Shown: one piece after another, positions 8,672-64,000 of the stretch
Layout of the letters: the number at the start of each line of letters is the position of its first letter
Numbering within the stretch: the stretch's first letter is position 1
Virus record (IMG/VR): IMGVR_UViG_3300044557_000151
Coordinates: 59,723 to 123,722 of that record
Length of the DNA: 64,000 nt
Strand: one strand, 5' to 3'
Source of the DNA: a virus
Lineage: Duplodnaviria > Heunggongvirae > Uroviricota > Caudoviricetes
The notes under the pieces: generated by a model
Told to the model about the DNA's origin: nothing
What the model saw: only the letters and a program-made list of their open reading frames with translations
The model's database searches: none
Position numbers and translations under genes: made by a program

Positions 8672-9317
8672 ATTGAAAGGTGGTGATACAATTAGTTCAC
8701 AGGCAAGTAAGACTGATCGTAGACCTATTAAGGTGGGTTTTCTAGCATTTGTTTCTGCGTTCGCGTTTGCAATCCTCCCGGCGAAGCACGCTGGTGGCGA
8801 TCAAATCATTCAAACACAGAAAAACGATGACCATTATCGATATTCACGAATTGTAAAAGAAGCAGATCGGCGCGTTGAGCAGAGGCGCGTTCGATACTTT
8901 CGAAGTTTAATGAAGTCTTGGCGTTCAGCTAAGGTTCATTCAGATGAGGTTGCAAGAAAAGAAAAGGCCGCGGCTATGGCTGCGGCTAATAATTCTAGGC
9001 AAACAAACACTAATGTGTTAAAGCCCGTGACAGTTGCAAGATATTCTAACTTCAGGCTTTCATTTTATGATCCAGCAGTATTGGGAGCACTTACCATGCC
9101 GGGCGGTATGTATTCTGGCGTAGCGGCGGATTTGTCGCTATTTCCAAAAGGTACGCACCTACGAATTACCGCTAATAATGGCATGATAATTGATCGGGTC
9201 GTTAATGATACTGGAACGTTTATCTATAGTAATCGATACCAGTTAGATGTTGCTTGGCCGAACAATCAAATACCTAGCGCTGGCGTTCTATACGCTACGG
9301 TTGAGGTTGTTCAATAA
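8664..9317 (+). CDS. 3D-domain protein, putative peptidoglycan-binding/lytic transglycosylase-like
   Basis: The C-terminal ~100 aa (FRLSFYDPAVLGALTMPGG...GTHLRITANNGMIIDRVVNDTGTFI...QLDVAW) fit the 3D (MltA/RlpA-like double-psi beta-barrel) domain. N-terminus is hydrophobic. The start codon is uncertain (TTG in the ORF track). Confidence 0.5.
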   Translation: MCLLKGGDTISSQASKTDRRPIKVGFLAFVSAFAFAILPAKHAGGDQIIQTQKNDDHYRYSRIVKEADRRVEQRRVRYFRSLMKSWRSAKVHSDEVARKEKAAAMAAANNSRQTNTNVLKPVTVARYSNFRLSFYDPAVLGALTMPGGMYSGVAADLSLFPKGTHLRITANNGMIIDRVVNDTGTFIYSNRYQLDVAWPNNQIPSAGVLYATVEVVQ

Positions 9318-9333: not shown

Positions 9334-9966
9334 ATCAGAACTATCAAAGTTACGGCAGAGGTTGATCTTGATCCTTTCAAGTCTGATGACGCGAAGGCGG
9401 CAATTCAGATGGTAACAGGAATGGAACAAACAGACTTCGCTACATTATTTTCAAATGATGTTGGTACTCAAATCGCATCATTGTTGAATAAACGTGGTTT
9501 CAAAGATATTCATGTTGATTTTGACGATGCAGACGCTGGTACTGACTGGACTCCGAGTCCTGAAGATACAATTTTAGGTCCAGAGCCTGTCGAACCGGAT
9601 TTTTTAGAAGATGAGTCTGATTCAGTAGACATGTCTGAAGAAGATTCGAATGTGACATTGGCCGGCCAGTTTGATTTGAAGATCGGATTAGAAGATTCAA
9701 TCATTGATTCGGTTGCAGATATCCGTATGGAAATGGATACGCCGACGAATATTGATTTAAATTCCAAACAAATTGATCCGGTGATTTTGGGGGCGATTGA
9801 TGAGGAGTTCATTGAGAATCGCATTGGTAAAAACATCATTTTATCTACCGTAGAAATGCCAGATGAAATTACATATGCAATTACGTCTGAAGGTTTTGAC
9901 GGTAACTTCAACACGCATAAATACGCCTATAATGGCGAAACAACGGAGGAACTGAATGGCAAGTGA
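9334..9966 (+). CDS. acidic hypothetical protein
   Basis: ORF track frame 9247..9966. A strong SD GAGAGGGGGT is followed 6 nt later by an in-frame ATC (9334). The first in-frame ATG is at 9409, preceded by AAGGCGG. Start is ambiguous. Confidence 0.4.
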   Translation: MRTIKVTAEVDLDPFKSDDAKAAIQMVTGMEQTDFATLFSNDVGTQIASLLNKRGFKDIHVDFDDADAGTDWTPSPEDTILGPEPVEPDFLEDESDSVDMSEEDSNVTLAGQFDLKIGLEDSIIDSVADIRMEMDTPTNIDLNSKQIDPVILGAIDEEFIENRIGKNIILSTVEMPDEITYAITSEGFDGNFNTHKYAYNGETTEELNGK

Positions 9967-15818: not shown

Positions 15819-15836
15819 ATGAACCGCTTCTATTGT

Positions 15837-16780: not shown

Positions 16781-16798
16781 TGAATTGCATTCGCTTTT

Positions 16799-17344: not shown

Positions 17345-17348
17345 GAGT

Positions 17349-17648: not shown

Positions 17649-17933
17649 TATCTGGATAAATTAAGTTTACGACCAAAAAGCATCCAGAGAAACGCTAACG
17701 TATTGCAGCTGGACTTTAGAGCGATACGAGAGGGCAATCAGCTGTCGGACGGCAGGAAGTTGTCGTAGGTGGATTTGCAACACTTATAGAAAAAGGCTGG
17801 CATGTTCTTGCGCACGAACAAAGCTGGTTAAGATTAAAGTGTGGCGCAGTAGTCGGATAGGTGATTAGTAGTCTGGTGGTCGCAGATGAAAGATCTTACC
17901 GGACTAGGTAGTTCGACTCTACCATCCACCATT

Positions 17934-18006
17934 GGTTGTGTGGTGTTAATGGCTAACACGCCTGATTGTCTATCAGGAGCTTAGGGTTCAATTCCCTACA
18001 CGACCG
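17934..18006 (+). tRNA. tRNA-Asp(GTC)
   Basis: Acceptor GGTTGTG/CACGACC. Anticodon stem CCTGA/TCAGG with loop TTGTCTA. T-arm TAGGG-TTCAATT-CCCTA. Confidence 0.8.
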
Positions 18007-18476
18007 TCAAGCCGAAAGGTTTGAGTTCTTTGCTGTTAATATAACTACCTATCGGATTGGCTAATGACCGCCGATATTTCGGGGATGTAACGGTCTCGAC
18101 AGGATATGCTTAACTGACAAAGCATGTAGAGTGATGACTTAATCATCAACTTGCTAAATGCAAAACAAAACGATTTAGTTGCGGCCTAAGTTTAACTTAG
18201 TATAGCAACACTTACCCCAACGTATGATACCAGATACAAGACGTTGGCTAAACAGGCTGGTGTAGGATGACACTTACTTATTTTCATAAGCTTATCCGAA
18301 ATCTATTGAAAATATGCTCGTCTACTCCGATTGCCCATTTGCGGAAGACGCTAAGACTAATAAGTGAGCTAAGCATGTAGAATTGTCAGATAGAAGCATG
18401 TGTTGGAAACGGGTTCAACTCCCGTCATCTCCATATAGTATGTCGTTACACAATAACATACTAGATATAGTGCAAC

Positions 18477-18564
18477 GGAAAGTTACTCAAGTGGCTGAAG
18501 AGGCGCCCCTGCTAAGGGTGTAGGTCGAGAAATCGGCGCATGGGTTCAAACCCCATACTTTCCA
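18477..18564 (+). tRNA. tRNA-Ser(GCT)
   Basis: Class II tRNA. Acceptor GGAAAGT/ACTTTCC, anticodon loop CTGCTAA, long variable arm, T-arm ATGGG-TTCAAAC-CCCAT. Confidence 0.8.
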
Positions 18565-26579: not shown

Positions 26580-27731
26580 ATGATAAATATTGTTTTAAAA
26601 GGCATTAAACTAAGAATATACCCTAGCAAAGAGCAACAGCTAAGTATAAAGCTTAACTTTGGATATAACCGATTTGTTTGGAATCAGATGCTGGGTATGT
26701 TACAAGAAAGATATGCTAATAACCCTAAGCTATCTTTTCCTAGCGCCTTTACTTTAAATAACTTGTTACCAACAATGAAGATAGAATATTCTTGGCTTAA
26801 CGATGCTGAAAGTCGTAGCTTACAAATAACCTGTAAAAACTTAGTTGATGCTTACAAGAAGTTCTTTAAGACCCATAAGGGGTTTCCTAAGTTTAAATCA
26901 AAGAAGTATCCTAAGCAAAGCTACCAAACAAATTCTACAATAAAGCTAAAGGCCAACGAAGTTAAGTTTCCGAAATTAGGCTATATGAAGTTTAAAGGTA
27001 GTAGCAAAAAACTAAATGAGATTACTAAGATTAAGCTAGGAACTATTAAACTTACACCTACTGGTAAATACTATCTTGTACTGATTGCAGAGTGTGAAAA
27101 CCAAGCACTCCCTAAATCAGGAAATCAAGTAGGTATTGATATGGGGTTAGCTGATTTGATGATTACTAGTGACGGTGTAAAGTATCCTACTTTAAGATTT
27201 GACAAGATACTAGCTAAGAAAAAACGTTACTGGGAAAAGCGTTTAGCTCGTAGACGACTTCAAGCTCAAAAAGAGATTGCTTGGGATAAGCATAATAAGG
27301 TATTAAATCCTAGGGAACTTTCCAACTTTAAAAACTATCAGAAAGCAAAGCTAATGGTTGCTAAGTATTCAGAAAAAATAGCTAACCAGCGTAAAAACTA
27401 CCTTCATATGCTTTCAAAACAGCTTGTATCACAATATGATGTGATTAAGATAGAAGATTTGAAAACCAAGAATCTTCTTAAGAATCATAAGTTATCTAGA
27501 GCAATAGCTAATGCAAGTTGGAAAGAACTTAGAAGACAACTAGAGTACAAGTGCTTATGGTATGGGAAACAGTTAGTCACTGTGAACCCTAGAAAAACCT
27601 CACAAATATGTTCTAGTTGTGGCTATGATGACGGTAAGCATACCTTAGATATTAGAGAGTGGACATGTCCCAAGTGTGGTGTTCACCACGACAGGGACAT
27701 TAACGCGGCTATCAATATCTTAAATGCTTAA
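26580..27731 (+). CDS. tnpB: TnpB RNA-guided endonuclease
   Basis: N-terminal KLRIYPSKEQ...FGYNRFVWNQ. RuvC-I GIDMG and RuvC-II IEDLKTK. C-terminal CSSCG...CPKCG zinc finger followed by RuvC-III DRDINAAINIL. Confidence 0.9.
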   Translation: MINIVLKGIKLRIYPSKEQQLSIKLNFGYNRFVWNQMLGMLQERYANNPKLSFPSAFTLNNLLPTMKIEYSWLNDAESRSLQITCKNLVDAYKKFFKTHKGFPKFKSKKYPKQSYQTNSTIKLKANEVKFPKLGYMKFKGSSKKLNEITKIKLGTIKLTPTGKYYLVLIAECENQALPKSGNQVGIDMGLADLMITSDGVKYPTLRFDKILAKKKRYWEKRLARRRLQAQKEIAWDKHNKVLNPRELSNFKNYQKAKLMVAKYSEKIANQRKNYLHMLSKQLVSQYDVIKIEDLKTKNLLKNHKLSRAIANASWKELRRQLEYKCLWYGKQLVTVNPRKTSQICSSCGYDDGKHTLDIREWTCPKCGVHHDRDINAAINILNA

Positions 27732-27854
27732 ATGACTAGTGTGGGCTGGAACAGCCCTTAGTAAATAGTCGTAACCGCTACACCTCATTCAACGAATGAA
27801 GTGCAAGTCAGCGATGTTCCTAGAAGCTCGGTCATTCATGGCCGAGTAGTTCAC
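27732..27854 (+). ncRNA. putative omega-RNA scaffold / IS right end
   Basis: Structured segment 3' of tnpB with hairpins. Conserved with the other two right-end copies (GTTCC-AGAAGCTCGGTCATTCATGGCCGAGTAGTTCAC). Confidence 0.45.
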
Positions 27855-50558: not shown

Positions 50559-50597
50559 AAATCAATACATAATGCAGAGGTGAACAACATAGAACAG

Positions 50598-50987
50598 ATG
50601 AAAGACAAGGTGTTACGTATGCTTGACGAAGCACCTGAACGAACTGTAGAAAGATTGAAAAAGGCGGCTTTTGATTGGAGTGAATACGACCTGACAATCA
50701 TTTCCAATGAGATAGGAAATGAGTTATCTACTGTACGAGGGGCCATTCGACAATACTTGGACGATCCGTTGGTCAAATCAATGAATCCAAAGCGATCTGA
50801 ATCATCGTTGGATAATAAAACAATCAACAATTTAGTCGAAGCAACTCAATCTCAGAAAATTGATATTGAGGCATTATCCGATGTGATGTTTGGTCTGGCA
50901 GCGGAATTCGCCGCAGGGCAAAAAACTGCAAGTATGACACAACTTCAAATGCGAAAGTTCTTACTTAACCTATTCAAACAGGGGTAA
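50598..50987 (+). CDS. hypothetical protein
   Basis: Frame of ORF 50553 (TTG). First ATG at 50598. Start uncertain. Confidence 0.4.
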   Translation: MKDKVLRMLDEAPERTVERLKKAAFDWSEYDLTIISNEIGNELSTVRGAIRQYLDDPLVKSMNPKRSESSLDNKTINNLVEATQSQKIDIEALSDVMFGLAAEFAAGQKTASMTQLQMRKFLLNLFKQG

Positions 50988-52911: not shown

Positions 52912-53091
52912 ATGGCATTCTTCTTATCCAAATTAGTGATTGGTGTAATCGTTATTATCATCGTTGTTGGATTGTTTTCCATGTGGAGTAAACCACTAAC
53001 TCCAAAATCAAAGGCAGTCCACACAACACCAGAACGACCAATTGCACCGAAGCCGGAACCTAATCATAAAGATGAATGGAGTGACTTCTAA
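52912..53091 (+). CDS. small membrane protein (possible NfeD-like partner)
   Basis: 59-aa ORF below the track cutoff. One TM helix (LVIGVIVIIIVVGLF). Immediately after the SPFH gene. Confidence 0.3.
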   Translation: MAFFLSKLVIGVIVIIIVVGLFSMWSKPLTPKSKAVHTTPERPIAPKPEPNHKDEWSDF

Positions 53092-53270
53092 TCGATACAT
53101 TAACTTATCTTAGCGAGATGTTCGTAATCTTATTTACTGGATATGGAATGGTTTATTCGAACGCCGGTATCGAGCTTATTGGGCTACTCATGCTGATCGT
53201 GATGCACACACTTGATTGGGTGCTTTCTTCCAAAGTGAAGAAGGGTAAGCACGCAAAATAGGAGATATAC

Positions 53271-54462: not shown

Positions 54463-54575
54463 TTTTATCATGTGCAGGAAAGAAGACACGTTCTTTAAAG
54501 GACGTGATGAATTGCCTTCTTTTTAGCGCCAAAGGCGCTACACATGGTACGAAATCGTGTGGTATAATAAGCTAT

Positions 54576-55019
54576 ATGAAAGACACTAATAGACTTACGT
54601 ATGGTAGAACTTCTGTCTACAATCTAAATTACCACATCATCTGGGGAACTAAATACCGTAACCGGGTTCTGAAAGGAAATGTTGAGGTTACGCTCAAGCA
54701 AATTATGTATGAAATCGCAGAGCAATATGGTTTTAGCATCGACCACATGGAAATTGGTCAGGATGACCATATTCACTTGCTGGTGAGTGCACCGCCAAAA
54801 CTATCAGTTACCAATATTGTGCGATGGCTAAAAGGCATTTCAGCGCGCCAGCTATTCGTCGCGTGTCCGGAGCTACAGCGAAGTTACTGGAAACATGCAG
54901 GACGCCACTTATGGTCGCCCAGTTATTACGTAGAAAGTATTGGCACAACTAATCAGAATGCAGTCGCTAAGTACATTGATGACCAAAGGTTGAAGGAGGT
55001 GAAGATTAATGACAATTAA
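54576..55019 (+). CDS. tnpA: IS200-like Y1 (HUH) transposase TnpA
   Basis: YHIIWGTKYR and HIHLLVSAPP (HuH) motifs plus a downstream Tyr. ATG 54576 (track frame from 54504). Confidence 0.85.
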   Translation: MKDTNRLTYGRTSVYNLNYHIIWGTKYRNRVLKGNVEVTLKQIMYEIAEQYGFSIDHMEIGQDDHIHLLVSAPPKLSVTNIVRWLKGISARQLFVACPELQRSYWKHAGRHLWSPSYYVESIGTTNQNAVAKYIDDQRLKEVKINDN

Positions 55020-56148
55020 AGCTTATAAACTTAGGATCTACCCAAATGAGGCTCAAAAGCTTCAAATGGAAAAGAACTTTGGTATGTGTCGATTTGTATG
55101 GAACCAGCTTCTCGCTATGCAGAATGCGCGCTACAAGAACGGTGGTGACTACGTCAACGAGTTTGGCATGAATTACCTATTTAAGCCCCTGAAAAAAGAA
55201 TACCAATGGCTTAAAGAAGCAGACTCAACCAGCTTAATAGCTGTGAGCCACAATCTGCACTTAGCATTTAAAAACTTTTTCAAAAAGCATGAAGGGTATC
55301 CGAAGTTTAAGACTAAGCGGTTCACCCGCCCTGCATATCGTTCTAACGCAGTTAACCACAATATCGTTCTTATGGACGAGCAACATATTCGGCTGCCAAA
55401 ACTTGGATCAATAGCATTTCGATCTGGACAGTTACCAAGGGGTAAAGTTAAAACTGCAACAGTTACTAGAAGTCCCGCTGGTAAATACTATGTACTTGTG
55501 ACTACGGAAGTCGAAATAGAGAAATGGAACCCAACAGGCGCTAGTGTCGGCTTGGATATGGGAGTCGCTGACCTTGTAATCACTAGTGATGGTATGAAGT
55601 TTGCGACCAAACGGTTTGATAAAGCTCTTGCCAAAAAGAAACACTACTGGGAGAAACGATTGGCCCGTAGGCGCGCCTTAGCTCAAAAAGAAATTGCCTG
55701 GGATAAACACCTCAAGGTAGAATCGCCACGTCAGTTATCTGACTTCAAGAATTACATGAAGGCTAAAGAAATGGTGGCGAAATACAGTGAAAAAGTGTCT
55801 AATCAACGTCACGATTACCTTCAAAAGATCAGTACTGAGCTCGTTTCAGAATATGATGTGATTAAATTAGAAGACCTGAAAACCAAGGGCCTGATGAAGA
55901 ATCACAAACTGTCACGAGCAATTGCAAATCAGTCGTGGCGTGAATTACGTCTGATGTTGGAATACAAAGCAGCTTGGTATGGTAAGAGTATCATTGCCGT
56001 GTCTCCGTATAAGACCTCACAACGTTGTTCAGTATGTGGCTACGATGATGGCAAACATGAGCTAGATATCCGCGAATGGACTTGCCCACAATGCCATACT
56101 CATCACGATCGTGACATAAATGCCGCAAAGAACATTCTAGTCGCATAA
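55009..56148 (+). CDS. tnpB: TnpB RNA-guided endonuclease
   Basis: KLRIYPNEAQ...FGMCRFVWNQ. RuvC-I GLDMG, RuvC-II LEDLKTK. Zinc finger CSVCG...CPQCH. RuvC-III DRDINAAKNIL. Confidence 0.9.
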   Translation: MTIKAYKLRIYPNEAQKLQMEKNFGMCRFVWNQLLAMQNARYKNGGDYVNEFGMNYLFKPLKKEYQWLKEADSTSLIAVSHNLHLAFKNFFKKHEGYPKFKTKRFTRPAYRSNAVNHNIVLMDEQHIRLPKLGSIAFRSGQLPRGKVKTATVTRSPAGKYYVLVTTEVEIEKWNPTGASVGLDMGVADLVITSDGMKFATKRFDKALAKKKHYWEKRLARRRALAQKEIAWDKHLKVESPRQLSDFKNYMKAKEMVAKYSEKVSNQRHDYLQKISTELVSEYDVIKLEDLKTKGLMKNHKLSRAIANQSWRELRLMLEYKAAWYGKSIIAVSPYKTSQRCSVCGYDDGKHELDIREWTCPQCHTHHDRDINAAKNILVA

Positions 56149-56287
56149 AAAGCAAAGACCCAAATGGTCTATCGGCACGGGACGTGCCTTGGCTAATAAC
56201 CGTAACCTCTGCATTGTTAGTTTAATGCTAATGGTGTAAGTCGGCGGCGTTCCCAGAAGCTCGGTCATTCATGGCCGAGTAGTTCAC
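56149..56287 (+). ncRNA. putative omega-RNA scaffold / IS right end
   Basis: Nearly identical to 17245..17344. Hairpins GGCACGGGACGTGCC and CTCGGTCATTCATGGCCGAG. Confidence 0.45.
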
Positions 56288-56298
56288 GAATTCAATAG

Positions 56299-56356
56299 TA
56301 GACAAACACTAATGTGTTTGGTATACTATTAGACGTAGACAAATACTAATGTGTTT
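56299..56356 (+). promoter_or_regulatory. promoter-operator unit
   Basis: TAGACA-N17-TATACT at 56299..56327. Second palindrome copy AAATACTAATGTGTTT at 56341..56356. Confidence 0.6.
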
Positions 56357-56388
56357 TTGTTTAACAAGATGTTAAAGGGGAGATTAGT

Positions 56389-56880
56389 ATCACAGAAACG
56401 ATTCGACCTGATTATTACAAACAGGGCGCAAGTGAGACTTGGGACGACATCAAAGCATGGGGACGTACACCATACTTAGGTTTTATCCTTGGGAACACAC
56501 GAAAGTACATTGATCGATATTGGGGAAAGAATGGAGTTAAGGATTTACGTGAACTTCAAACATATCTAGCTCACGTCATTCAGGACCCTGATACTGTTAA
56601 ACCAGCAAAAGTTGCCGACATCCGCGCTAACGTGCAAAAAATTGTTAGCGATGCGGTTGAAGCGTTTGTAGATTCGGCTTGTGAAGATTCATCACAACTG
56701 ACCACCATTCAATTAGTGGTTACTGGATTGATCTCATACGAAGAAGACCTGATTAAGAAGGCTGACGAGACCAACGATGCTGGCGTTACTTTAAAGGAAG
56801 CAGCAGAAGCTGCTACCATGTTGGATGACACCGTCAAGGAGGCTACAACTGTTGAGCAAACGATTAACACTGAAGCGTGA
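56389..56880 (+). CDS. DUF3310-like phage protein, probable non-ATG (ATC) start
   Basis: The open frame from 56365 encodes ...RPDYYKQG..ETWDDIKAWG..GNTRKYIDRYWGK... upstream of the first canonical start (GTG 56632). SD AAAGGGGAG sits 6 nt before ATC 56389. Confidence 0.45.
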   Translation: MTETIRPDYYKQGASETWDDIKAWGRTPYLGFILGNTRKYIDRYWGKNGVKDLRELQTYLAHVIQDPDTVKPAKVADIRANVQKIVSDAVEAFVDSACEDSSQLTTIQLVVTGLISYEEDLIKKADETNDAGVTLKEAAEAATMLDDTVKEATTVEQTINTEA

Positions 56881-57130
56881 TTTCAACTTAACTCGGCTGT
56901 TCCTTAAGATGCGCCCTGATGCTGAACTATACGCTGCTAACGAAGATTCTACAACATTTACTCTTCGTAAGACCGGTTCGGGAATCTTGGGCGGAACTCT
57001 TGATCGTGAAGATGCCGAAAAGATGATGAAGACGAAAAAGGTCGTTGTGATTTATGAAGACCTTAACGAAATTGAGTATTACAACTTCACCAACGATTCT
57101 GAAATCTTTGGCTGGGTAATGAACAACTAG
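56852..57130 (+). CDS. hypothetical protein
   Basis: TTG 56852 after AAGGAGG. Track frame 56825. Confidence 0.35.
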   Translation: MSKRLTLKRDFNLTRLFLKMRPDAELYAANEDSTTFTLRKTGSGILGGTLDREDAEKMMKTKKVVVIYEDLNEIEYYNFTNDSEIFGWVMNN

Positions 57131-57139
57131 GAGGGAACA

Positions 57140-59419
57140 TTGGGACATTCAAACTCAATCAGCGTAACTGCAAAGCTTAAAACGTTACGCTATTCGTCTC
57201 CTGATCCGGAAAATCATTTCTTCATTGGAATATTTGAGGTCATTGACGCAAAAGGGTATGACCTTTCGTATTCCGAGCCATTCGATAAGCTGATTACCGT
57301 TAAGGGAAATGGAGAACCGATCACAGGGGTTACATATAAAGTCTCTGGGACCCTTGAACACAATAATCGATTCGGAGATCAATATCAGGTCTATCAACTG
57401 CCGATTGCGTTTGATTTAACTACTGCAACAAAAGAGCAGGTTCGGACATTCCTGGGATCATTTATCTCGAAAAGTCTTACAAACGCGATTGTAGATGGTC
57501 TACCTAATCCGGGCGAAGTACTTGTATCTGGAACAGTTGAAGAACTGTCACAGATAAAAGGTATCGGGGCGACAAAGGGCGAGAGTATCCTAAACAAAGT
57601 TCGATCACAACTCGATTACAGTGCCGCAATCGTAGCTTTGAAAGACTTTGGCTTTAACTTCTCTCCAAAAGTTGTTCAGAAAGTGGTTCAGGCGTTCAAA
57701 TCACCTGAAGGTGTAGCGTCCGCGCTTAACACCAATCCATATCTCATGACTCGTGTACCTGGTATTGGATTCCTAACTGTCGATAAAGTTGCTATCAAAC
57801 ATGGTATTCAACCAAATGATTCCAACCGGGTTCGCAGTTACATTCAATATTATCTACAAGAAGAACGTGAGAATGGCAATTCTTATGTTGAGGCAAAGGA
57901 CTTTGTCGTGAACCTTAACGATAAGATTTACGGAGTTGATATTCCGGGGGCGATTGAATACATTAATAAGTCGCCATTGTATTCGGTATACCAGGTTGAA
58001 GACGAAATGCGTATTTCATTGTCGTCTGTGAACCAGCGAGAACAGGCCGTAGCCAAAGAATTGAAACGGCTCGTATCATTCAACGGGAAGATGGGTTTCA
58101 AATCGGATCTCGTTGAAAGGGCTGTTGCTCATACTGAAGACAAGCAGGGATTTAAGTATTCAAAAATCCAACGAGCCGCAATTGACGAAATGGTAGACAA
58201 TAACGTCTATCTGTTACAAGGATTATCCGGGAGTGGCAAATCGTCATCGATTGCAGGGTTTGTCAATGCCTTGCGAGAACACCACTTTTCATTCACTCAG
58301 GTAGCTTTATCGGGGAAGGCTGCGAACAACCTCGAACAGATTACCGGTGAAGAAGGATCGACAATTCATCGTCGATTGAAGATTATGCCCGATCAAAAAG
58401 GGAAATACTTCTATGGTCCAGATCAACGCTTAGAAGAAGACGTCATCATTTTAGATGAGTTATCCATGGTCGATCTCGATATTTTCTACGCGTTAATCTC
58501 CGCCATTAAAGACGGTGGCAAGCTGATTATGATCGGTGATATTGCTCAGTTAGAGAGTATTGGGATTAGCGTTATGCGCGACTTTCTCACGTCCAATGTC
58601 GTTCCAACTCGCACACTTGATGAGATTCATCGTCAGGCGCAAAAGTCGGCAATTATCACACATTCAATTCAGATTCGTGGTGGCATCGTACCGGATGGCT
58701 TGGCAAAGTCGCCAGGTACAGTTCGTACCTACGGTGAACTGCAAGATTTAACCTACTCATTCGTTCGTAAGGATGGGGAGCAGGACAGCATCTTACATGA
58801 GTCAATTCGTATCTATAAGGAGTTGCTCAAAGAGCATAAGGTTGACGACATTCAAATCCTTATTCCAACGAAGAAGGGGCTTTGCTCAACCTTCACTCTG
58901 AATAAGGCGGGACAAGCGTTAGTAACACCACACCCAGACGACAAATCGAAACTTACTATCAATCAAGGTAAGGAAAACGAATTTGAGCTTCATGTAGGTG
59001 ATCGTGTTATCAACGTCAAGAATAATACAAAAACTCCAATTGATGACAACGGCAATCCAGCTCCTATCTTCAATGGGAACACAGGTGTCGTACTCAACTT
59101 ATCGAAAGGTGCGATCAAGATTTACTTCGATGGGATTGGAATTGTAAATGTCCTGCCAGATCACTTCAAGTATATCGAATTAGGATATGCAATTACGATT
59201 CATAAATCACAAGGTTCAACTATTCCCTATGTGATTGTTGCCTATCCATTCAACTACATGCTTAACAGTCGGGAATCACTTTATACAGCGATCACCCGCG
59301 CATCAAAACATTGCTGGGTCGTATCTTCTCCTTCGACGTTCGTTGAATCCGTTAAGAAGACAGCATCCACACAACACAACACTAGCTTAGACTATTATAT
59401 CAAAAGGGAGTTTCGTTAA
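57140..59419 (+). CDS. RecD-like SF1 DNA helicase
   Basis: N-terminal HhH (LSQIKGIGATKGESIL). Walker A QGLSGSGKSS. Motif V/VI region: ITIHKSQGST...LYTAITRASK. TTG start after AGGAGGG. Confidence 0.75.
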   Translation: MGHSNSISVTAKLKTLRYSSPDPENHFFIGIFEVIDAKGYDLSYSEPFDKLITVKGNGEPITGVTYKVSGTLEHNNRFGDQYQVYQLPIAFDLTTATKEQVRTFLGSFISKSLTNAIVDGLPNPGEVLVSGTVEELSQIKGIGATKGESILNKVRSQLDYSAAIVALKDFGFNFSPKVVQKVVQAFKSPEGVASALNTNPYLMTRVPGIGFLTVDKVAIKHGIQPNDSNRVRSYIQYYLQEERENGNSYVEAKDFVVNLNDKIYGVDIPGAIEYINKSPLYSVYQVEDEMRISLSSVNQREQAVAKELKRLVSFNGKMGFKSDLVERAVAHTEDKQGFKYSKIQRAAIDEMVDNNVYLLQGLSGSGKSSSIAGFVNALREHHFSFTQVALSGKAANNLEQITGEEGSTIHRRLKIMPDQKGKYFYGPDQRLEEDVIILDELSMVDLDIFYALISAIKDGGKLIMIGDIAQLESIGISVMRDFLTSNVVPTRTLDEIHRQAQKSAIITHSIQIRGGIVPDGLAKSPGTVRTYGELQDLTYSFVRKDGEQDSILHESIRIYKELLKEHKVDDIQILIPTKKGLCSTFTLNKAGQALVTPHPDDKSKLTINQGKENEFELHVGDRVINVKNNTKTPIDDNGNPAPIFNGNTGVVLNLSKGAIKIYFDGIGIVNVLPDHFKYIELGYAITIHKSQGSTIPYVIVAYPFNYMLNSRESLYTAITRASKHCWVVSSPSTFVESVKKTASTQHNTSLDYYIKREFR

Positions 59420-60126
59420 TGTCATACCAAACTATTACTAACTTCGAAGTCTTATACAAAGGTCAACGCGCATTCGTGCGTCGCACTTTTTTTGTCGGCG
59501 AAAAGGAATTCGCTGAAATCATCGTCTTCCCACATCGTGCAGAAAACGACTCTATCAATGTACCACGCGAAGAATTGCGCAGTATGCCTACTGAAAGTAG
59601 CTTAGAATTGGCTCAATTTGGTGCAATTGACGGCCTAGCTGACGGTGGCGCTGGTAAGGATGCTCGTGATATTTCAGACCAACCATTAGATTACCAAGAA
59701 TCCTACATGGAAAACTATCACTTTGCGATCAACAAGTACAACGCCGAACACGCTGAAGATGAAAAGAAGGAACAACAAACTGCCAAAGATACTACTGACG
59801 GTACAACCGCTGGTAAAGCAGATGGTGAAAAGGGTTCTGATCCAGCAGATTTAACTGGTAAGAGTGCTGCATACGTAACTGCTTATAACAAGGCTTACAC
59901 GACTGGCAAGGGTGTATATGACAAGGCTCAAGCTGACACCAAAGCCGGTACTGAAGCTGGTACTACAGATGGATCAAATGGTTCTGCTAAAGCTGATTTA
60001 ACTGGTAAATCAGATGCTTACACCACCGCTTACAACACGGCCTACACTACCGGTAAGGCAGCTTATGGTGCAGCTCATCCAGCAGAAGGTAGCGGTTCTG
60101 AAACTGGTACAACTCCAGAACCTTAA
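59419..60126 (+). CDS. hypothetical protein with C-terminal imperfect repeats
   Basis: Repeats of DLTGKSxAYxTAYNxAYTTGK. G/T/A-rich C-terminal tail. Confidence 0.45.
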   Translation: MSYQTITNFEVLYKGQRAFVRRTFFVGEKEFAEIIVFPHRAENDSINVPREELRSMPTESSLELAQFGAIDGLADGGAGKDARDISDQPLDYQESYMENYHFAINKYNAEHAEDEKKEQQTAKDTTDGTTAGKADGEKGSDPADLTGKSAAYVTAYNKAYTTGKGVYDKAQADTKAGTEAGTTDGSNGSAKADLTGKSDAYTTAYNTAYTTGKAAYGAAHPAEGSGSETGTTPEP

Positions 60127-60218
60127 TTTTAATAAAAGTATGGTAATGTAATCGCTTTCATGTTATAATATAGTTAATCCAAAAGGTGTTCTGGAAGATA
60201 TCTTAAAGGATTAATTAT

Positions 60219-60368
60219 ATGGAACACATTCAAACAAGTGATTACATTGCTCAGCTAAACTACCTCAACGACATCGGTCCCGGCGAATGGTGCACCTATC
60301 TATGGGACGAAGCGTTTAGTGAATTAGCTGACTTCTCGCCATTAATGGCATCATTATATATGGACTGA
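60219..60368 (+). CDS. hypothetical small protein
   Basis: 49-aa ORF below the track cutoff. Extended -10 element TGTTATAAT at 60160..60169 upstream. Confidence 0.25.
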   Translation: MEHIQTSDYIAQLNYLNDIGPGEWCTYLWDEAFSELADFSPLMASLYMD

Positions 60369-60375
60369 AAGAACT

Positions 60376-60402
60376 GGCGGTGATCGCACCGCTATTTCTT
60401 TT
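60376..60402 (+). terminator. rho-independent terminator
   Basis: Stem GGCGGTG-ATCG-CACCGCT followed by ATTTCTTTT. Confidence 0.5.
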
Positions 60403-60566
60403 GCCAAAAATAGCTTAAATAGTCTGAATTAGGTAAGGGAGACGCCAAATGAAGAGTCACGGACCACCAGGATAAAACCCGTATTTTATAACTACGATCC
60501 GCTCACAGAAGCGGGGATAAGGGACCCTACAACGTAGGGACGAAACCTACTAAACGAAAAGAGGAA
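60403..60566 (+). promoter_or_regulatory. structured 5' leader of the pnuC-like gene (candidate riboswitch/attenuator)
   Basis: 164-nt leader. SD-led mini-ORF MKSHGPPG (60447..60473). Hairpins CCGCTCACAGAAGCGG and GACCCTACAACGTAGGGAC lie ahead of the pnuC RBS. Confidence 0.3.
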
Positions 60567-61331
60567 ATGAACAACTTGGAAAACACTAACACAACTAAAT
60601 TTACTGGTACTTATTTTCAATGGATCAAGCATCAATTAACCGGATGGGACACTTTCCCATGGGCATTGTGGGGATTCGGTATCGGATTTGAATTAGCCCT
60701 GCTGCTCACCAATAAGATTACACCATTAGCTATCATTTCATTCATCGGCGTATTCTTCGGTATGTGGTGTACAGTCGCAATGTCGTCAGGCGGTACTGAC
60801 GCTAACGGTAATCGAGTAATCTCTCACTCGATTAATGGATTGTTGGGCGCAATCAGTGTAATCGCCTATGTCTATGTTAACTGGACCGCAGGGCACTGGT
60901 TCAGTGTCCTGGATCAATTTGCCTACTTCTTCTTAATCGATTTTGGTTTGATGATTAACTGGCGCACATGGGGACATGGCGAAAACGGCGGCAAGATGAA
61001 TGAACTCTCCAAAAAAGGCTGGGCAATCGTTACTGCTATTATCCTGATTGGTTGGTTTGCCTTCTACCATCTTGGCGTAGTATTAAACGACAGTAATCCA
61101 ATTTGGGATTCCCTCACGTTCGCTATTGGCGCTACGGCAAGCTGGTTGTGCTTCAAGCGTTACACATCGACATACACATTATGGATTTGTTCAAATATTG
61201 TAAATTTGGTTCTTTGGTTTACTGCCCTGCAAGCAGGGTATAGTCAATCAGCACTCGTTATGCTTGTTATGAACGTATTCTATATGGCTACTGCGATCTA
61301 CGGTAAGTTTGTGTGGAAGGTGGAAAAGTAG
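60567..61331 (+). CDS. pnuC: PnuC-family nucleoside/NMN transporter
   Basis: 254 aa, about 7 TM helices, Trp-rich. NWTAGHWFSVLDQF and the loop layout are typical of PnuC. Confidence 0.6.
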   Translation: MNNLENTNTTKFTGTYFQWIKHQLTGWDTFPWALWGFGIGFELALLLTNKITPLAIISFIGVFFGMWCTVAMSSGGTDANGNRVISHSINGLLGAISVIAYVYVNWTAGHWFSVLDQFAYFFLIDFGLMINWRTWGHGENGGKMNELSKKGWAIVTAIILIGWFAFYHLGVVLNDSNPIWDSLTFAIGATASWLCFKRYTSTYTLWICSNIVNLVLWFTALQAGYSQSALVMLVMNVFYMATAIYGKFVWKVEK

Positions 61332-61334
61332 TCC

Positions 61335-62780
61335 TTGCCAGTATCATTAACATTATCTCAAGTGCAACAACGTATCGACGAAAAGTTTAAGGAAAACATT
61401 GAGGTACATGATGACTTCGTAGGGTGGACACACCCTTGTACAATGAGTTGTCGAAAGTGCGGAACAAGCTGGTTTATGAATCCTAGAAATCTGTGTGACA
61501 TGCGACACGGATGTGGGTGCGACTCGTGTAACAAGAAGACCTTTCAACCTCACAATCTGAAAGCTGCCGAACAGGTACGGGACGAGATTCTTGATGCAAC
61601 CGACGGAACAACGCAATTGCAGGTAAACGCCTACACCCGTTCTCAAGAGAAGTGCGACTTTGTTTGCTTAATCTGTGGCAATACCTGGTGCGCCGTTCCG
61701 TCGGTGCTTTTATGGGAGTCTAAAAACAGAAGAACAACTGGTTGCTCAAAGTGTTCACGTAGGTTGCAGGCGCAAAGACAGCAGCGAACAATCGAAGATG
61801 TAAGAGTGTATGTCGCGGATTGTGCACCGGAAATCACCGTTCTTGCGTATGACCCAATTAAGCACCGTGTCGATATGAAGTGCGATAAGTGCGCGTATGA
61901 GTTTACTACAGGATTCGACTCTGATAAAGAAAAGGGGAAGACGCGCTTCCGCTGTCCTAGATGTACTCCTTGCGAATCATCTGGAGAACGGTTCGTTCGA
62001 CGTGTTCTTGACTACAATCAAATCGAGTATCAACAAGAATACTCGTACTTCAACACGATTGAGAAGACCTGGCAGCGATTTGATTTCTTGCTTCCAGTTC
62101 AAAAGCTAGTAATTGAAATCAATGGTGATCAACACACCAACGAATCGAATTCCTTCTACAAGACTCGCATGGTATACCTCGATAAAGTCAAACGTCAATG
62201 GGCGCTAGATCAAGGGTTGCATGTACTGGATATAGATTATCCAACGGAGTCCATGATTTCACAATTAGTTGGTGAGCTCGGTTTACTCGCTGTGCCTCCG
62301 TTCGATTACAAAGACTCGCGAGAGTCTGAATATCAGGACGTTATTGCGTATCTAACGTCGGGGCATAATCTTATCGAAACACAGGCCAAATTCAACATGG
62401 GTCCCAAGGTAGTGAATAGATACATTAAGATGCGCGGATACGCAAATTATTGGGATTTATACCACACTGAACGGATGAAAAGATTGGGACTAACAAATGA
62501 TCTCATCATCGATTGGCTTAAGCATAACCACTTCTCGCATATTGAAGAAGAGATCGGGATTACTAAGAAGTATGTAATTAACCATATACTTAATAATCCA
62601 GACTACCCATACACCAACCTAACCGACATCAAAGATGAAGCAATTCGGTCAGATGAATTTACAAAGTATCGCAAGACTCACTCCAAGCGAGCAACTAGTA
62701 AATACTTTATGACTGATGCAGCCCACATTATTAAATTAATTGGGGCTGAAAAATGGGATAGAAAAGTTGAGGTGTCGTAA
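61335..62780 (+). CDS. multi-zinc-ribbon protein with Vsr/DUF559-like PD-(D/E)XK endonuclease domain (paralog of 44921)
   Basis: Many CxxC pairs. GERFVRRVLDYNQIEY...FDFLLPVQKLVIEINGDQH...LHVLDIDY matches the nuclease domain of the 44921 protein. C-terminal HTH-like tail. Confidence 0.5.
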   Translation: MPVSLTLSQVQQRIDEKFKENIEVHDDFVGWTHPCTMSCRKCGTSWFMNPRNLCDMRHGCGCDSCNKKTFQPHNLKAAEQVRDEILDATDGTTQLQVNAYTRSQEKCDFVCLICGNTWCAVPSVLLWESKNRRTTGCSKCSRRLQAQRQQRTIEDVRVYVADCAPEITVLAYDPIKHRVDMKCDKCAYEFTTGFDSDKEKGKTRFRCPRCTPCESSGERFVRRVLDYNQIEYQQEYSYFNTIEKTWQRFDFLLPVQKLVIEINGDQHTNESNSFYKTRMVYLDKVKRQWALDQGLHVLDIDYPTESMISQLVGELGLLAVPPFDYKDSRESEYQDVIAYLTSGHNLIETQAKFNMGPKVVNRYIKMRGYANYWDLYHTERMKRLGLTNDLIIDWLKHNHFSHIEEEIGITKKYVINHILNNPDYPYTNLTDIKDEAIRSDEFTKYRKTHSKRATSKYFMTDAAHIIKLIGAEKWDRKVEVS

Positions 62781-62857
62781 GACCCTTATCGACAATGAGA
62801 CCTCGCGTCCGAGTGGGTGGAATGCCCATACATAATCAATGAAAGTGACGGTACAAT

Positions 62858-63589
62858 ATCATTCTGTACATTTTAGGATCAATTGGCGCTGGCAAGACAA
62901 GCCTAACCGATTTATTAGCAAAAGACCTACAAACTACCGCATACTATGAAGACATTAGTGGAAATGGCATGATTGGGAGTATGCTTGAAAAATTCTACGA
63001 ATCAGGGATTGACTCAAGAAAGCGCACGGGTGCGATGCTCCAGATCGCCTTCTTAACATTCCGTTACCAGCAATTAAAACGAGCAATTGTTGAACGTAAC
63101 GCTATTCTGGATTCTAGCCTCGAATCCGATTTTGTAATGGCAAAACAGTTGCATGACAACGGCGAAATTGATGATGTGGACTATAACATCTATACTACCT
63201 TATCACAAGAAATGCAGGCTAACGTGAATGGTATGCCATGGAGCGGATATCCAGATCTCGCCATCTACTTAAAGATTGATCCGGAGAAGGAAATCGAGGA
63301 GATTCAAGGACGTGGCCGCGAAATGGAAGATATCCGCAAAGACCCTGAATTGGTTGATTACTATCATCGCGTCAACAAAGCTTATCGCGAATGGTCTAAA
63401 GGTTATACTCGTGGAATTATGCTGACGATTGATCGTGATAAATACGATTTCGTTAATAATCTCGACGATCGCAACACTGTCCTAAATCAAATCGAACATA
63501 AACTTGTTGATCTCGGCAAGTTGTCCCCCGAAGAGTTTGACGCGATTCGTGCTCGCCGTGAACCATTAACTCGCGGTTTGCCGTTCTAA
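62858..63589 (+). CDS. deoxynucleoside kinase (dAK/dGK family), probable ATC/ATT start
   Basis: P-loop ILGSIGAGKTSL at 62870..62905 lies in frame upstream of the first ATG (62969), with no ATG/GTG/TTG after the in-frame stop at 62846. The C-terminus IQGRGREMEDIRKDPELVDYY...DRDKYDFVNNLDDRN aligns with Lactobacillus dAK/dGK. Confidence 0.75.
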   Translation: MILYILGSIGAGKTSLTDLLAKDLQTTAYYEDISGNGMIGSMLEKFYESGIDSRKRTGAMLQIAFLTFRYQQLKRAIVERNAILDSSLESDFVMAKQLHDNGEIDDVDYNIYTTLSQEMQANVNGMPWSGYPDLAIYLKIDPEKEIEEIQGRGREMEDIRKDPELVDYYHRVNKAYREWSKGYTRGIMLTIDRDKYDFVNNLDDRNTVLNQIEHKLVDLGKLSPEEFDAIRARREPLTRGLPF

Positions 63590-63756
63590 CAATCACAATC
63601 GTTCCATGGGCGGCGCTGATAGCCAAGTTCTACACATGAGTAGATCTAAAGTCCAAATAGTCACGTCATCTTAGAGGGTGACACAGCACTACATTATTAC
63701 AATTTCGATACAATATCGAGCGTCAATTGGAGACGATAACAGGTCAGCAGTTACAC

Positions 63757-63785
63757 AAAAAGCGCCCCTGAATAGGGACGCTTTT
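63757..63785. terminator. bidirectional rho-independent terminator
   Basis: AAAAGCGCCCC-TGAATA-GGGACGCTTTT, with an A-tract on one side and a T-tract on the other. Lies between the plus-strand dNK gene and the minus-strand rplS. Confidence 0.6.
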
Positions 63786-63809
63786 AATAAACATATAAAT
63801 ACCCGTGGA

Positions 63810-64000
63810 TTAACGGCGCTTTTCTTTGATACGCGCAGCCTTACCACGTAATGCCCGCAAGTAGTACAACTTGGCACGGCGTACTTGACCATGACGGGTA
63901 ACTTCGATCTTTTCAACACGTGGGGTGTGTAATGGGAAAGTCCGTTCAACACCAACGCCGCTGGAGATCTTACGAACGGTGTAAGTCGCAGAAACACCAG
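63810..64000 (-). CDS. rplS: 50S ribosomal protein L19, C-terminal part (gene runs off the window)
   Basis: Minus-strand translation ...[56 protein letters not shown] matches the L19 C-terminus. Stop codon complement at 63810..63812. Confidence 0.85.

What the first reader, a model, noticed from the sequence alone, without database searches (positions are those of the whole stretch)
56365..56632. Second case of a conserved N-terminal region without a canonical start: DUF3310-like gene with SD + 6 nt + ATC
The frame open from 56365 encodes RPDYYKQGASETWDDIKAWG..GNTRKYIDRYWGK, which is DUF3310-like, for about 80 codons before the first canonical start (GTG 56632). A strong SD AAAGGGGAG (56374..56382) sits exactly 6 nt before ATC 56389. 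The same SD + 6 nt + ATC geometry recurs at 9334 (GAGAGGGGGT..ATC) and approximately at the dNK gene. Three instances suggest this genome tolerates AUC initiation, or they share a systematic sequencing/editing artefact.
Basis: seen in the sequence. Interest (0 to 1): 0.5.

Follow-up and report, generated by a model that had tools for sequence, protein, structure and literature searches.

The report
Phage genes starting at ATC/ATT codons
A phage gene whose conserved front half has no normal start codon almost certainly begins at an ATC codon placed behind a ribosome-binding site, and at least three other genes in the same phage do likewise (ATC or ATT), so automatic annotation cuts these proteins short.

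Summary
The frame opens at 56365. Pfam DUF3310 matches residues 14-68, and the first ATG/GTG/TTG is GTG 56632, 89 codons in and without a ribosome-binding site. AAAGGGGAG lies 6 nt before ATC 56389.

It is not a sequencing artefact. Two diverged metagenome contigs (about 98% identical, from different samples) carry the same ATC, the same Shine-Dalgarno (SD) sequence and the same G-run.

Homology places the N-terminus on the ATC codon. In a MAFFT alignment, Met1 of 9 of 10 homologues falls in the ATC column (MTESISPSYY against ITETIRPDYY).

The pattern recurs in the window:
- ATT 8691 and ATC 9334 follow the two strongest orphan SD sites in my screen.
- The dNK gene starts at ATC 62858 or ATT 62861; its P-loop lies upstream of the first ATG.
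- Weaker candidates are ATC 53091, ATA 50589 and ATT 26589.

In an SD-anchored screen, ATC (5 sites) is as common as GTG (4), and no other non-start codon exceeds 2.

Best reading: genuine near-cognate AUC/AUU initiation, which probably weakens expression. This kind of start is known (infC, pcnB, E. faecalis ebpA); its density here is unusual. No experiment has tested it in this phage.

The parts
56299..56327 (+). Promoter of the operon whose first gene is the DUF3310 gene: TAGACA, 17 nt, TATACT, with TG before the -10 hexamer
   Evidence: Promoter scan, 10 of 12 matches. The same layout occurs at four other sites in the window.
56303..56356 (+). Two copies of the 17-nt repeated operator-like element (56303-56319 CAAACACTAATGTGTTT in the promoter spacer; 56340-56356 CAAATACTAATGTGTTT in the 5' leader)
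   Evidence: 15 copies in the window, all on the + strand, against 0.1 expected by chance. Layout.
56374..56382 (+). Shine-Dalgarno sequence AAAGGGGAG
   Evidence: Sequence. Duplex energy with the 16S 3' end is -8.6 kcal/mol, against a median of -8.8 for canonical genes in the window. Computed aligned spacing to ATC is 5; 6 nt separate the motif from ATC.
56389..56391 (+). ATC, the proposed initiation codon of the DUF3310 gene
   Evidence: Met1 of 9 of 10 homologues aligns to this codon. It is the modal position among 66 homologues with an N-terminal domain. It is invariant in two diverged strains.
56389..56880 (+). DUF3310 protein gene, 163 codons plus stop. DUF3310 domain at 56404-56568, followed by a variable acidic C-terminal tail
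   Evidence: Pfam PF11753 at 25.4 bits, gathering score 24. PHROG 236 'nucleotide kinase', E = 6e-13. 392 homologues at E <= 1e-3, nearly all matching residues 10-75. An in-frame 15-nt deletion in the tail of relatives.
56632..56634 (+). GTG, the first canonical start in frame. Gene callers use it and produce a truncated 82-aa product
   Evidence: Called as an 82-aa gene in the Logan contig, and as 77 aa in a JGI relative. SD energy -0.3 kcal/mol.
8691..9317 (+). Gene with proposed ATT start. SD GAAAGGTGGTGAT (8675-8687) lies at aligned spacing 6 and an operator copy at 8655-8671
   Evidence: SD energy -15.5 to -18.5 kcal/mol depending on the anti-SD string used, the strongest orphan SD by the longer string. 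In-frame TTG 8664 and TTG 8673 have no SD. ATT is invariant in 11 related contigs.
9334..9966 (+). Gene with proposed ATC start. SD GAGAGGGGGT (9318-9327) lies at aligned spacing 7
   Evidence: SD energy -16.9 kcal/mol. All 5 variants at 4 sites between 9345 and 9387 are synonymous third-position changes in this frame. TTG 9307 has spacing 1, and ATG 9330 is out of frame at spacing 3.
62858..63589 (+). Deoxynucleoside kinase gene with proposed ATC 62858 or ATT 62861 start. The P-loop is encoded at 62876-62899, upstream of the first canonical ATG 62969
   Evidence: Pfam dNK, E = 1e-28, from residue 8 of the open frame. Met1 of the dNKs of Lactobacillus phages 3-521 and Semele aligns with ATT 62861, and that of 8014-B2 with ATC 62858. 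16 synonymous against 5 non-synonymous differences to a relative.
53091..53261 (+). Possible small membrane-protein gene with ATC start. TAATC overlaps the stop of the preceding gene where TAATG would be usual
   Evidence: SD -9.0 kcal/mol at spacing 8; ATG 53118 has no SD. Gene callers left it uncalled. Weak candidate.
50589..50987 (+). Possible ATA start behind SD AGAGGTGA at spacing 7. ATG 50598 and ATG 50619 are alternatives
   Evidence: Ambiguous.
26589..27731 (+). Second TnpB-like gene with a possible ATT start at spacing 7-8. ATG 26580 abuts the SD (spacing 0)
   Evidence: However, Pfam HTH_OrfB_IS605 aligns from the Met at 26580. Ambiguous.

Best explanation
The DUF3310 gene is a complete, functional gene of 163 codons. 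Its translation starts at the near-cognate codon AUC (56389), which the ordinary initiator tRNA reads as fMet. The 30S subunit is positioned there by the SD AAAGGGGAG at the same distance that canonical genes in this phage use.

The gene is the first cistron of a transcript from a sigma-A-type promoter (56299-56327) that carries a repeated operator. This is one of several AUC/AUU-initiated genes in the phage: ATT 8691, ATC 9334 and dNK ATC 62858 or ATT 62861, with three weaker candidates.

Shown by sequence and comparison:
- The region upstream of GTG 56632 codes for protein.
- The N-terminus lies at or next to the ATC codon.
- The SD geometry is the canonical one.
- The sequence is real.
- The pattern is enriched.

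Inferred:
- AUC itself is the codon decoded at initiation.
- The effect is reduced translation that is sensitive to initiation factor IF3, as for known AUU starts.
For: (1) Coding upstream of the first canonical start. The Pfam DUF3310 match is at residues 14-68. phmmer found 392 homologues, almost all matching residues 10-75. All 14 columns that are invariant in alignment A3 are kept in the window sequence.

(2) Position of the N-terminus. Met1 of 9 of 10 aligned homologues falls in the ATC column. Among 66 homologues whose match starts within their first 12 residues, the modal aligned position of their residue 1 is codon 56389 (14 cases; neighbouring codons 8-11 each).

(3) SD geometry. Aligned spacing for canonical genes has its mode at 7, and 37 of 53 lie at 5-8. 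ATC 56389 is at 5-7 with -8.6 kcal/mol, against a median of -8.8. ATT 56383 is at spacing 1, ATT 56401 at 17, and GTG 56632 has no SD.

(4) Not an artefact. Three independent data sets, two of them about 2% diverged, are identical from 56263 to 56665. The flanks vary, and the tail carries an in-frame 15-nt deletion.

(5) Recurrence. ATT 8691 and ATC 9334 follow the two strongest orphan SDs. At 9345-9387, 5 of 5 variants are synonymous. The dNK P-loop lies upstream of the first ATG, and the gene is under purifying selection at 16 synonymous to 5 non-synonymous. ATC is enriched at P = 0.003.

(6) Precedent. AUC supports initiation with an N-terminal Met in E. coli at about 1-2% of AUG (bioRxiv 10.1101/063800). 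An ATT start in the Firmicute E. faecalis (ebpA) gives only about 3.5-fold less reporter expression than ATG (PMC4447247).
Against: There is no direct evidence of initiation (no proteomics, ribosome profiling or toeprinting).

All relatives that carry the ATC are close (at least 97.8% identical), so the codon's conservation is shallow. No more distant orthologue with ATG at that position could be examined at the DNA level.

The DUF3310 SD is only of average strength. In E. coli AUC is a very weak start.

The homologue N-termini scatter over codons 56377-56389, so ATT 56383 cannot be excluded on homology alone.
Confidence: 0.75

Rival explanations
1. Initiation at the out-of-frame ATG 56369, followed by a programmed -1 ribosomal frameshift on A_AAG_GGG (56374-56380), giving MLKGEISITE... 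Analogous recoding would follow ATG 9330 and ATG 62839.
For: The heptamer fits X_XXY_YYZ in the ATG 56369 frame. After a -1 slip both tRNAs re-pair (AAG to AAA, GGG to GGG) and the next codon, GAG 56380, is in the DUF3310 frame (sequence). The resulting N-terminus would fall within the range seen in homologues. An out-of-frame ATG within 20 nt upstream exists in all three cases.
Against: ATG 56369 has no SD (-1.6 kcal/mol); the only SD is the heptamer region itself.

The leader fold is no more stable than shuffled sequence and no stimulatory structure is evident (z = -0.53).

The other two cases would need +1 shifts, with no recognisable shift site. At dNK the in-frame IILYILGSIGAGKT matches the homologue MIYIIGSISAGKT, so that frame is read from at least codon 62861-62864.

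ATG 9330 is only 3 nt from its SD, and its 11-codon frame loses its stop in 9 relatives.

One mechanism (a near-cognate start) explains all the loci; frameshifting would need three different ones.
Confidence: 0.05
2. The genes have lost their start codons and are decaying. The DUF3310 domain is no longer translated, and at most the 82-aa tail is made from GTG 56632.
For: Gene callers produce only the truncated products. The phage carries IS200/IS605 elements and the DUF3310 operon sits directly beside one. AUC is a poor start in E. coli (bioRxiv 10.1101/063800).
Against: The 81 codons from ATC to GTG contain no stop and keep every family-invariant residue.

No substitution occurs in 56263-56665 in two strains whose flanks differ by 1-6%.

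dNK shows 16 synonymous against 5 non-synonymous differences, and it would be inactive without its P-loop.

9345-9387 shows 5 of 5 synonymous variants.

A well-placed SD is retained at every locus, and GTG 56632 has none.
Confidence: 0.1
3. Initiation occurs at a different non-canonical codon of the same frame (ATT 56383 or ATT 56401 for DUF3310; TTG 9307 for the 9334 gene; TTG 8673 for the 8691 gene).
For: These codons are in frame. Prodigal-type callers chose TTG 9307 and TTG 8673 in related contigs. Homologue N-termini scatter by a few residues.
Against: The aligned spacings are 1 (ATT 56383), 17 (ATT 56401) and 1 (TTG 9307). TTG 8673 lies upstream of the SD and has no SD of its own (-1.6 kcal/mol). 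Canonical genes cluster at spacing 5-8.
Confidence: 0.07
4. A sequencing, assembly or base-modification artefact turned ATG into ATC/ATT or introduced indels near the starts.
For: Three loci of the same kind appear in one sequence. An added G in the G4 run would put ATG 56369 in frame.
Against: The same bases appear in three independent assemblies from different samples, two of them diverged strains, and in 11 contigs for 8691 and 9334.
Confidence: 0.02

Closest known systems
AUU-initiated genes infC and pcnB of E. coli (start-codon discrimination by initiation factor IF3)
   Same: A near-cognate AUN codon behind a normal SD serves as the only start of a functional gene. The expected result is reduced, IF3-sensitive translation. 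The near-cognate status of AUU/AUC and the two confirmed cases come from bioRxiv 10.1101/063800.
   Different: The codon here is mostly AUC, for which I know of no experimentally confirmed natural case (my own knowledge). There are several genes in one phage rather than one autoregulated gene. There is no link to IF3 itself. Nothing has been tested.
ebpA of Enterococcus faecalis: rare ATT start that attenuates pilus-tip expression (PMC4447247)
   Same: A Firmicute-type strong SD is followed by ATT. The annotated downstream ATG is wrong. The start was first recognised from an SD and a conserved N-terminal region upstream of the first ATG. Expression is attenuated about 3.5-fold.
   Different: It is a chromosomal gene that has been validated experimentally. 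It uses ATT, not ATC. It is a single gene.
sigR of Streptomyces: GTC start repressed by IF3 (PMC5472188, title and abstract only)
   Same: A non-canonical start codon is used as a regulatory layer.
   Different: A different codon and organism, with a demonstrated regulatory role.
DUF3310 (PF11753) phage proteins, filed in PHROGs as 'nucleotide kinase' (the link to T7 gp1.7 is from my own knowledge)
   Same: The 60-residue domain with its conserved P..Y..G..E...GN..KY..R...KNG..DL...YL signature sits at the extreme N-terminus, as in many single-domain homologues.
   Different: It has an extra 95-residue acidic, variable C-terminal tail. Its start codon is ATC rather than ATG.
dnaX-type -1 programmed frameshifting
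   Same: A formal A_AAG_GGG heptamer lies 5 nt after an ATG.
   Different: The ATG has no ribosome-binding site, there is no downstream stimulator, and no equivalent exists at the other loci.

Membership tests
DUF3310 (Pfam PF11753) | Whole-protein score above the Pfam gathering threshold | tested here: met
   25.4 bits against 24; residues 14-68 cover profile positions 3-59 of 60.
DUF3310 (Pfam PF11753) | Conserved signature residues of the domain | tested here: met
   P15, Y18, G21, E24, G43, N44, K47, Y48, R51, K55, D60, L61, Y67 and L68 are invariant across the query and 10 homologues.
Genes with a near-cognate (AUU/AUC) initiation codon | Conserved coding sequence upstream of every usable canonical start | tested here: met
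   DUF3310 domain and dNK P-loop lie upstream of the first ATG/GTG/TTG. For 9334, synonymous-only variation upstream of ATG 9409. For 8691 and 9334, in-frame TTG/ATG codons exist but have no usable SD.
Genes with a near-cognate (AUU/AUC) initiation codon | SD at the spacing used by canonical genes of the same genome | tested here: met
   Spacing 5-8 and energies -8.6 to -16.9 kcal/mol, against a mode of 7 and a median of -8.8 for canonical genes.
Genes with a near-cognate (AUU/AUC) initiation codon | Homologues start with Met at the aligned position | tested here: met
   DUF3310: 9 of 10 homologues. dNK: Met1 of three phage dNKs aligns with ATC 62858 or ATT 62861. Not testable for 8691 and 9334, which have no homologues outside near-identical contigs.
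Genes with a near-cognate (AUU/AUC) initiation codon | N-terminal (f)Met at that codon shown by protein sequencing, toeprinting or initiation-site profiling | not testable with these tools
   Needs an experiment.
Genes with a near-cognate (AUU/AUC) initiation codon | Expression depends on IF3 discrimination and rises when the codon is changed to ATG | not testable with these tools
   Needs an experiment.
-1 programmed ribosomal frameshift (dnaX type) | Slippery heptamer X_XXY_YYZ in the zero frame | tested here: met
   A_AAG_GGG at 56374-56380 in the frame of ATG 56369.
-1 programmed ribosomal frameshift (dnaX type) | A functional initiation site for the zero frame | tested here: not met
   ATG 56369: SD energy -1.6 kcal/mol, spacing 16.
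-1 programmed ribosomal frameshift (dnaX type) | Downstream stimulatory structure | tested here: not met
   The fold of 56334-56440 is no better than shuffled sequence, z = -0.53.
Deoxynucleoside kinase (Pfam PF01712) | Full-length match including the N-terminal P-loop | tested here: met
   E = 1.4e-28, profile positions 3-202 of 203, from residue 8 of the frame opening at 62849. GSIGAGKT is present.
SPbeta-type repressor/operator system (MrpR with the SPBRE repeated element) | A conserved element of about 15 bp repeated in promoter regions across the phage genome | tested here: met
   15 copies of a 17-mer, all on the + strand, five as pairs inside and just after TAGACA-17-TATACT-type promoters. 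The SPBRE concept is from PMC10516654.
SPbeta-type repressor/operator system (MrpR with the SPBRE repeated element) | An MrpR-like (tyrosine-recombinase-fold) repressor gene | tested here: inconclusive
   The precomputed table lists PF22823 MrpR_C_cat for the 420-aa product of 6622-7884. My own hmmscan against Pfam found nothing, even at E <= 5.

The most novel reading that the evidence does not exclude
This SPbeta-like phage lineage uses AUC/AUU as a regular class of start codons: about 4-7 genes in a window holding on the order of 100 ORFs, with AUC as frequent as GUG. They are concentrated on the first cistrons behind its repressor-controlled promoters (2 to 4 of 6 operator-proximal first genes, against 3 of a rough estimate of 90 others; Fisher P = 0.03 to 0.0002). 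Near-cognate initiation would then act as a second, translational gate on early genes. It would keep leaky transcripts silent in the lysogen, or tie early expression to the host's IF3 and initiation state. Alternatively, the host has unusually relaxed start-codon selection.
Probability: 0.2. Interest if true: 0.65.

Novelty: new member of a known kind. Interest (0 to 1): 0.4.

Why it matters
Practical consequence: gene callers truncate or miss these genes. The DUF3310 protein is called as an 82-aa (or 77-aa) fragment without its domain, the kinase as a 206-aa protein without its P-loop, and the 53091 ORF is not called at all. Functional annotation of this phage group is therefore wrong at these loci.

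Biological consequence: experimentally confirmed natural non-AUG/GUG/UUG starts in bacteria are very few and are AUU. A phage with several well-supported AUC starts would offer natural test cases for how strong SD pairing in Firmicute-type translation offsets a third-position mismatch. It would also allow a test of whether phages use start-codon weakness as a regulatory device. If the link with operator-controlled first cistrons holds in the whole genome and in relatives, it points to a combined transcriptional and translational control of early genes.

Tried and rejected
Searches for relatives that found nothing useful:
- megablast of the locus and of 24 kb against INPHARED phages: no relative, only a 190-nt patch shared with Lacticaseibacillus phages.
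- IMG/VR by protein and by degenerate DNA pattern: nothing.
- GTDB genomes: nothing.
- Word-indexed protein search with the DUF3310 protein: nothing.
- Word-indexed protein search with the 9334 protein: only its own cluster.
- tblastn of the 9334 protein against phages: nothing.
- Solved structures: no relative.

Exact-protein look-ups for the 82-aa, 92-aa, 206-aa and 59-aa products and for thymidine kinase returned only contigs of the same sample. The product of ATG 26580 is not on record.

Stop-codon reassignment was rejected. The upstream in-frame stops are followed further upstream by more stops or by promoter sequence (sequence).

A phage tRNA that could read AUC at initiation was not found. 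None of the 8 tRNA-like genes in the window has a GAU anticodon or looks like an initiator.

Transcriptional slippage on the G4 run was rejected because the run is too short (established knowledge) and because it would not explain the other loci.

A leader RNA structure around the start was not supported.

TnpB2 ATT 26589, ATA 50589 and ATC 53091 are kept only as possible cases, since canonical alternatives exist. ATC 45144 from the screen lies inside another gene and is taken as a false positive.

Full report
**What is there.** The window is one strand-uniform stretch of a large phage genome; every long ORF is on the + strand. It carries a tyrosine integrase, Fic/MazE-type genes, an SPbeta YorH-like protein, DNA polymerase III alpha, thymidine kinase, a RecD2-like helicase, a pnuC transporter, a deoxynucleoside kinase, seven tRNA genes, a tRNA-like element, a tmRNA and two TnpB elements. 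No close relative exists among deposited phages. At the protein level the nearest are Lactobacillus Herelleviridae for dNK (56% identity) and assorted Firmicute phages for the helicase (about 30%).

**The finding's locus.** The frame opens at 56365, after TAA 56362, and closes at 56880. Its first ATG/GTG/TTG is GTG 56632, 89 codons in, which is the longest start-free 5' stretch of any + strand frame in the window. Pfam DUF3310 matches residues 14-68 above the gathering score. The piece from GTG 56632 matches no Pfam family above its cut-off and no PHROG family. A full HMMER scan of 1.84 billion representatives gave 392 homologues at E <= 1e-3, and almost all align to residues 10-75, which lie upstream of the GTG. 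The N-terminal 80 codons are therefore coding sequence of a real family.

**Where translation starts.** The in-frame codons before the domain are Q D V K G E I S I T E T I R P. The only near-cognate candidates are ATT 56383, ATC 56389, ACG 56398 and ATT 56401.
- The SD AAAGGGGAG (56374-56382) pairs with the 16S 3' end at -8.6 kcal/mol, against a window median of -8.8 for canonical genes.
- It leaves 6 nt before ATC, which is an aligned spacing of 5-7 depending on the pairing register. Canonical genes have their mode at 7, and 37 of 53 fall at 5-8.
- ATT 56383 is at spacing 1 and ATT 56401 at 17. GTG 56632 has no SD.
- Homology gives the same answer independently. In MAFFT alignment A3, Met1 of 9 of 10 homologues sits in the ATC column (for example MTESISPSYY, MTDNINPNHY and MSEPTSPDHY against ITETIRPDYY). 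Among 66 homologues with an N-terminal domain, the modal position opposite their residue 1 is codon 56389.

**Transcription context.** A TAGACA-17-TATACT promoter with an extended TG lies at 56299-56327. The DUF3310 gene is thus the first cistron of its transcript and is not translationally coupled to anything upstream.

**Not an artefact.**
- The window is 100% identical over 56262-63834 to a Logan assembly of SRR16378546.
- Two JGI metagenome contigs are different strains: Ga0172378_10016181 (97.8% identical) and Ga0591959_0090127 (97.9%).
- Both have exactly the same sequence from 56263 to 56665, including the G4 run, the SD and the ATC.
- TnpB upstream differs at 10 sites in one of them (Ga0591959; the other shows none over the part it covers). 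The C-terminal tail differs at up to 14 sites and carries an in-frame 15-nt deletion.
- The in-frame deletion confirms the reading frame. The absence of any change in the domain fits with constraint.

**The other instances.**
- *dNK.* Pfam dNK matches from residue 8 of the frame opening at 62849, and the P-loop GSIGAGKT lies upstream of the first ATG, at 62969. Met1 of the dNKs of phages 3-521 and Semele aligns with ATT 62861, and that of 8014-B2 with ATC 62858. The SD-like GAAAGTGACGG gives -9.4 kcal/mol at spacing 6 or 9. Against the Ga0172378 strain the gene shows 16 synonymous and 5 non-synonymous differences, and the ATCATT is unchanged.
- *9334.* GAGAGGGGGT (-16.9 kcal/mol) lies at spacing 7 from ATC. 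Across ten non-identical related contigs, the five variants at four sites between 9345 and 9387 are all third-position synonymous changes in this frame. Translation therefore starts upstream of 9345, not at ATG 9409. TTG 9307 abuts a GAGG (spacing 1) and ATG 9247 has no SD; both overlap the preceding gene.
- *8691 (new).* The strongest orphan SD by the longer anti-SD string, GAAAGGTGGTGAT (-15.5 to -18.5 kcal/mol depending on the string used), lies at spacing 6 from ATT 8691. In-frame TTG 8664 and TTG 8673 have no SD.
- *Weaker candidates.* ATC 53091 (TAATC at a stop/start overlap), ATA 50589 and ATT 26589 in the second TnpB, where Pfam aligns from the upstream Met.

**Screen.** I looked for SD sites of at most -8.5 kcal/mol at spacing 5-8, at the 5' end of ORFs of at least 50 codons, that no canonical start nearby explains. 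The counts were ATG 43, TTG 6, ATC 5, GTG 4 and ATT 2, with no other codon above 2. ATC makes up 2.6% of non-start coding codons, so 5 of 37 has binomial P = 0.003. With one likely false positive removed, 4 of 36 has P = 0.014.

**Mechanism.**
- The most economical reading is ordinary 30S binding through the SD, with the initiator tRNA accepted on AUC or AUU despite the third-position mismatch. This gives an fMet N-terminus and lower output than AUG.
- That AUC can do this, with Met at the N-terminus, was measured in E. coli at about 1-2% of AUG (bioRxiv 10.1101/063800).
- In E. faecalis the natural ATT start of ebpA costs only about 3.5-fold (PMC4447247). Strong-SD Firmicute-type translation may therefore tolerate such codons better.
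- That these phage genes are deliberately attenuated or sensitive to IF3 is my inference.

**Rivals.**
- *-1 frameshift.* A shift from ATG 56369 on A_AAG_GGG is formally possible. It lacks an initiation site and a stimulator, and it cannot be extended to the other loci.
- *Decay after start-codon loss.* This is contradicted by intact frames, retained family-invariant residues, retained SDs and purifying selection.
- *Artefact.* Excluded as described above.

**Comparison with known systems and novelty.** This works like the known near-cognate starts (infC, pcnB, ebpA). The defining features I could test are met; direct proof of the initiating codon and of IF3 dependence is not available here. 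It is a new set of members of a known kind. The unusual points are the use of AUC and the number of cases in 64 kb.

A suggestive but small-sample observation concerns the repeated operator. Of the six first protein-coding genes behind it, two (8691, 56389) and possibly four (also 26589, 50589) have ATH starts. This compares with three among a rough estimate of 90 other genes (Fisher P = 0.03 to 0.0002).

Noticed in passing
window 6550, 8655, 9004, 15760, 15802, 21422, 26200, 26406, 26448, 39806, 39843, 50466, 50508, 56303, 56340 (each 17 nt, + strand): A 17-nt imperfect palindrome, CAAACACTAATGTGTTT, occurs 15 times, only on the + strand (0.1 expected). Five times it forms a pair: one copy in the spacer of a TAGACA-17-TATACT/TAATAT promoter and a second copy about 40 nt downstream. 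This resembles the SPBRE operator of phage SPbeta, which the MrpR repressor binds (PMC10516654). A candidate repressor gene is 6622-7884. A precomputed table gives it PF22823 MrpR_C_cat, but my own Pfam scan did not reproduce that.
   Followed up: partly
window 54504-56294; 26580-27854; 17231-17346: An IS200/IS605 element (Y1 transposase TnpA 54507-55019, TnpB 55009-56148) with a right-end, omega-RNA-like segment up to about 56290 sits directly upstream of the DUF3310 promoter. A second TnpB (26580-27731) is followed by a 54-nt segment (27801-27854) about 91% similar to that right end. A third, solo copy of the right end lies at 17231-17346 (91% identical to 56174-56289).
   Followed up: partly
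window 17349-17421: A tRNA-like gene starts 2 nt after the solo IS right-end copy. It has normal acceptor, D and T arms, but its 'anticodon arm' is a 6-bp stem with a 4-nt loop (AGAA), so it has no 7-nt anticodon loop. ARAGORN reports 'tRNA-???', Rfam tRNA scores 46.5 bits, and the minimum-free-energy fold is a cloverleaf. Its function is unknown.
   Followed up: partly
window 15836-18564: A phage-encoded RNA gene cluster behind an operator-controlled promoter. It holds tRNA-Arg(TCT), a tRNA-Gly(UCC)-like gene at 15995-16065 with an atypical T-loop (found by Rfam only), tRNA-Leu(TAG), Asn(GTT), Asp(GTC), Ser(GCT), and a full tmRNA (18081-18436, tag AKQNDLVAA).
   Followed up: no
window 56852-57130 and L005 (Ga0172378): The small gene after DUF3310 (TTG 56852 with SD AAGGAGG) carries a 1-nt deletion at 56957 in the Ga0172378 strain. 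Yet the 14 substitutions downstream of it are synonymous in the window's frame. In that strain the downstream frame has no canonical start before ATG ATG at 57023 but does contain an ATT. This could be a recent frameshift, an assembly error, or another non-canonical start.
   Followed up: partly
window 60130-60566: A 440-nt leader lies upstream of the pnuC-type NMN transporter gene (ATG 60567). It contains a promoter-like TATAAT region and a 49-codon ORF. No Rfam family matched at gathering threshold. In the Ga0172378 strain the region between 60413 and 62796 is largely replaced.
   Followed up: no
window 8649-8651 (L007, L011): Two related contigs carry C8651G. This creates an in-frame ATG 14 codons upstream of ATT 8691, in what is otherwise the intergenic region after a terminator. 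Gene callers then extend the gene to 222 aa. There is no SD in front of it.
   Followed up: no
The 9330 mini-ORF loses its stop in 9 relatives. Whether these are chance or small regulatory overlapping ORFs was not resolved.
   Followed up: partly
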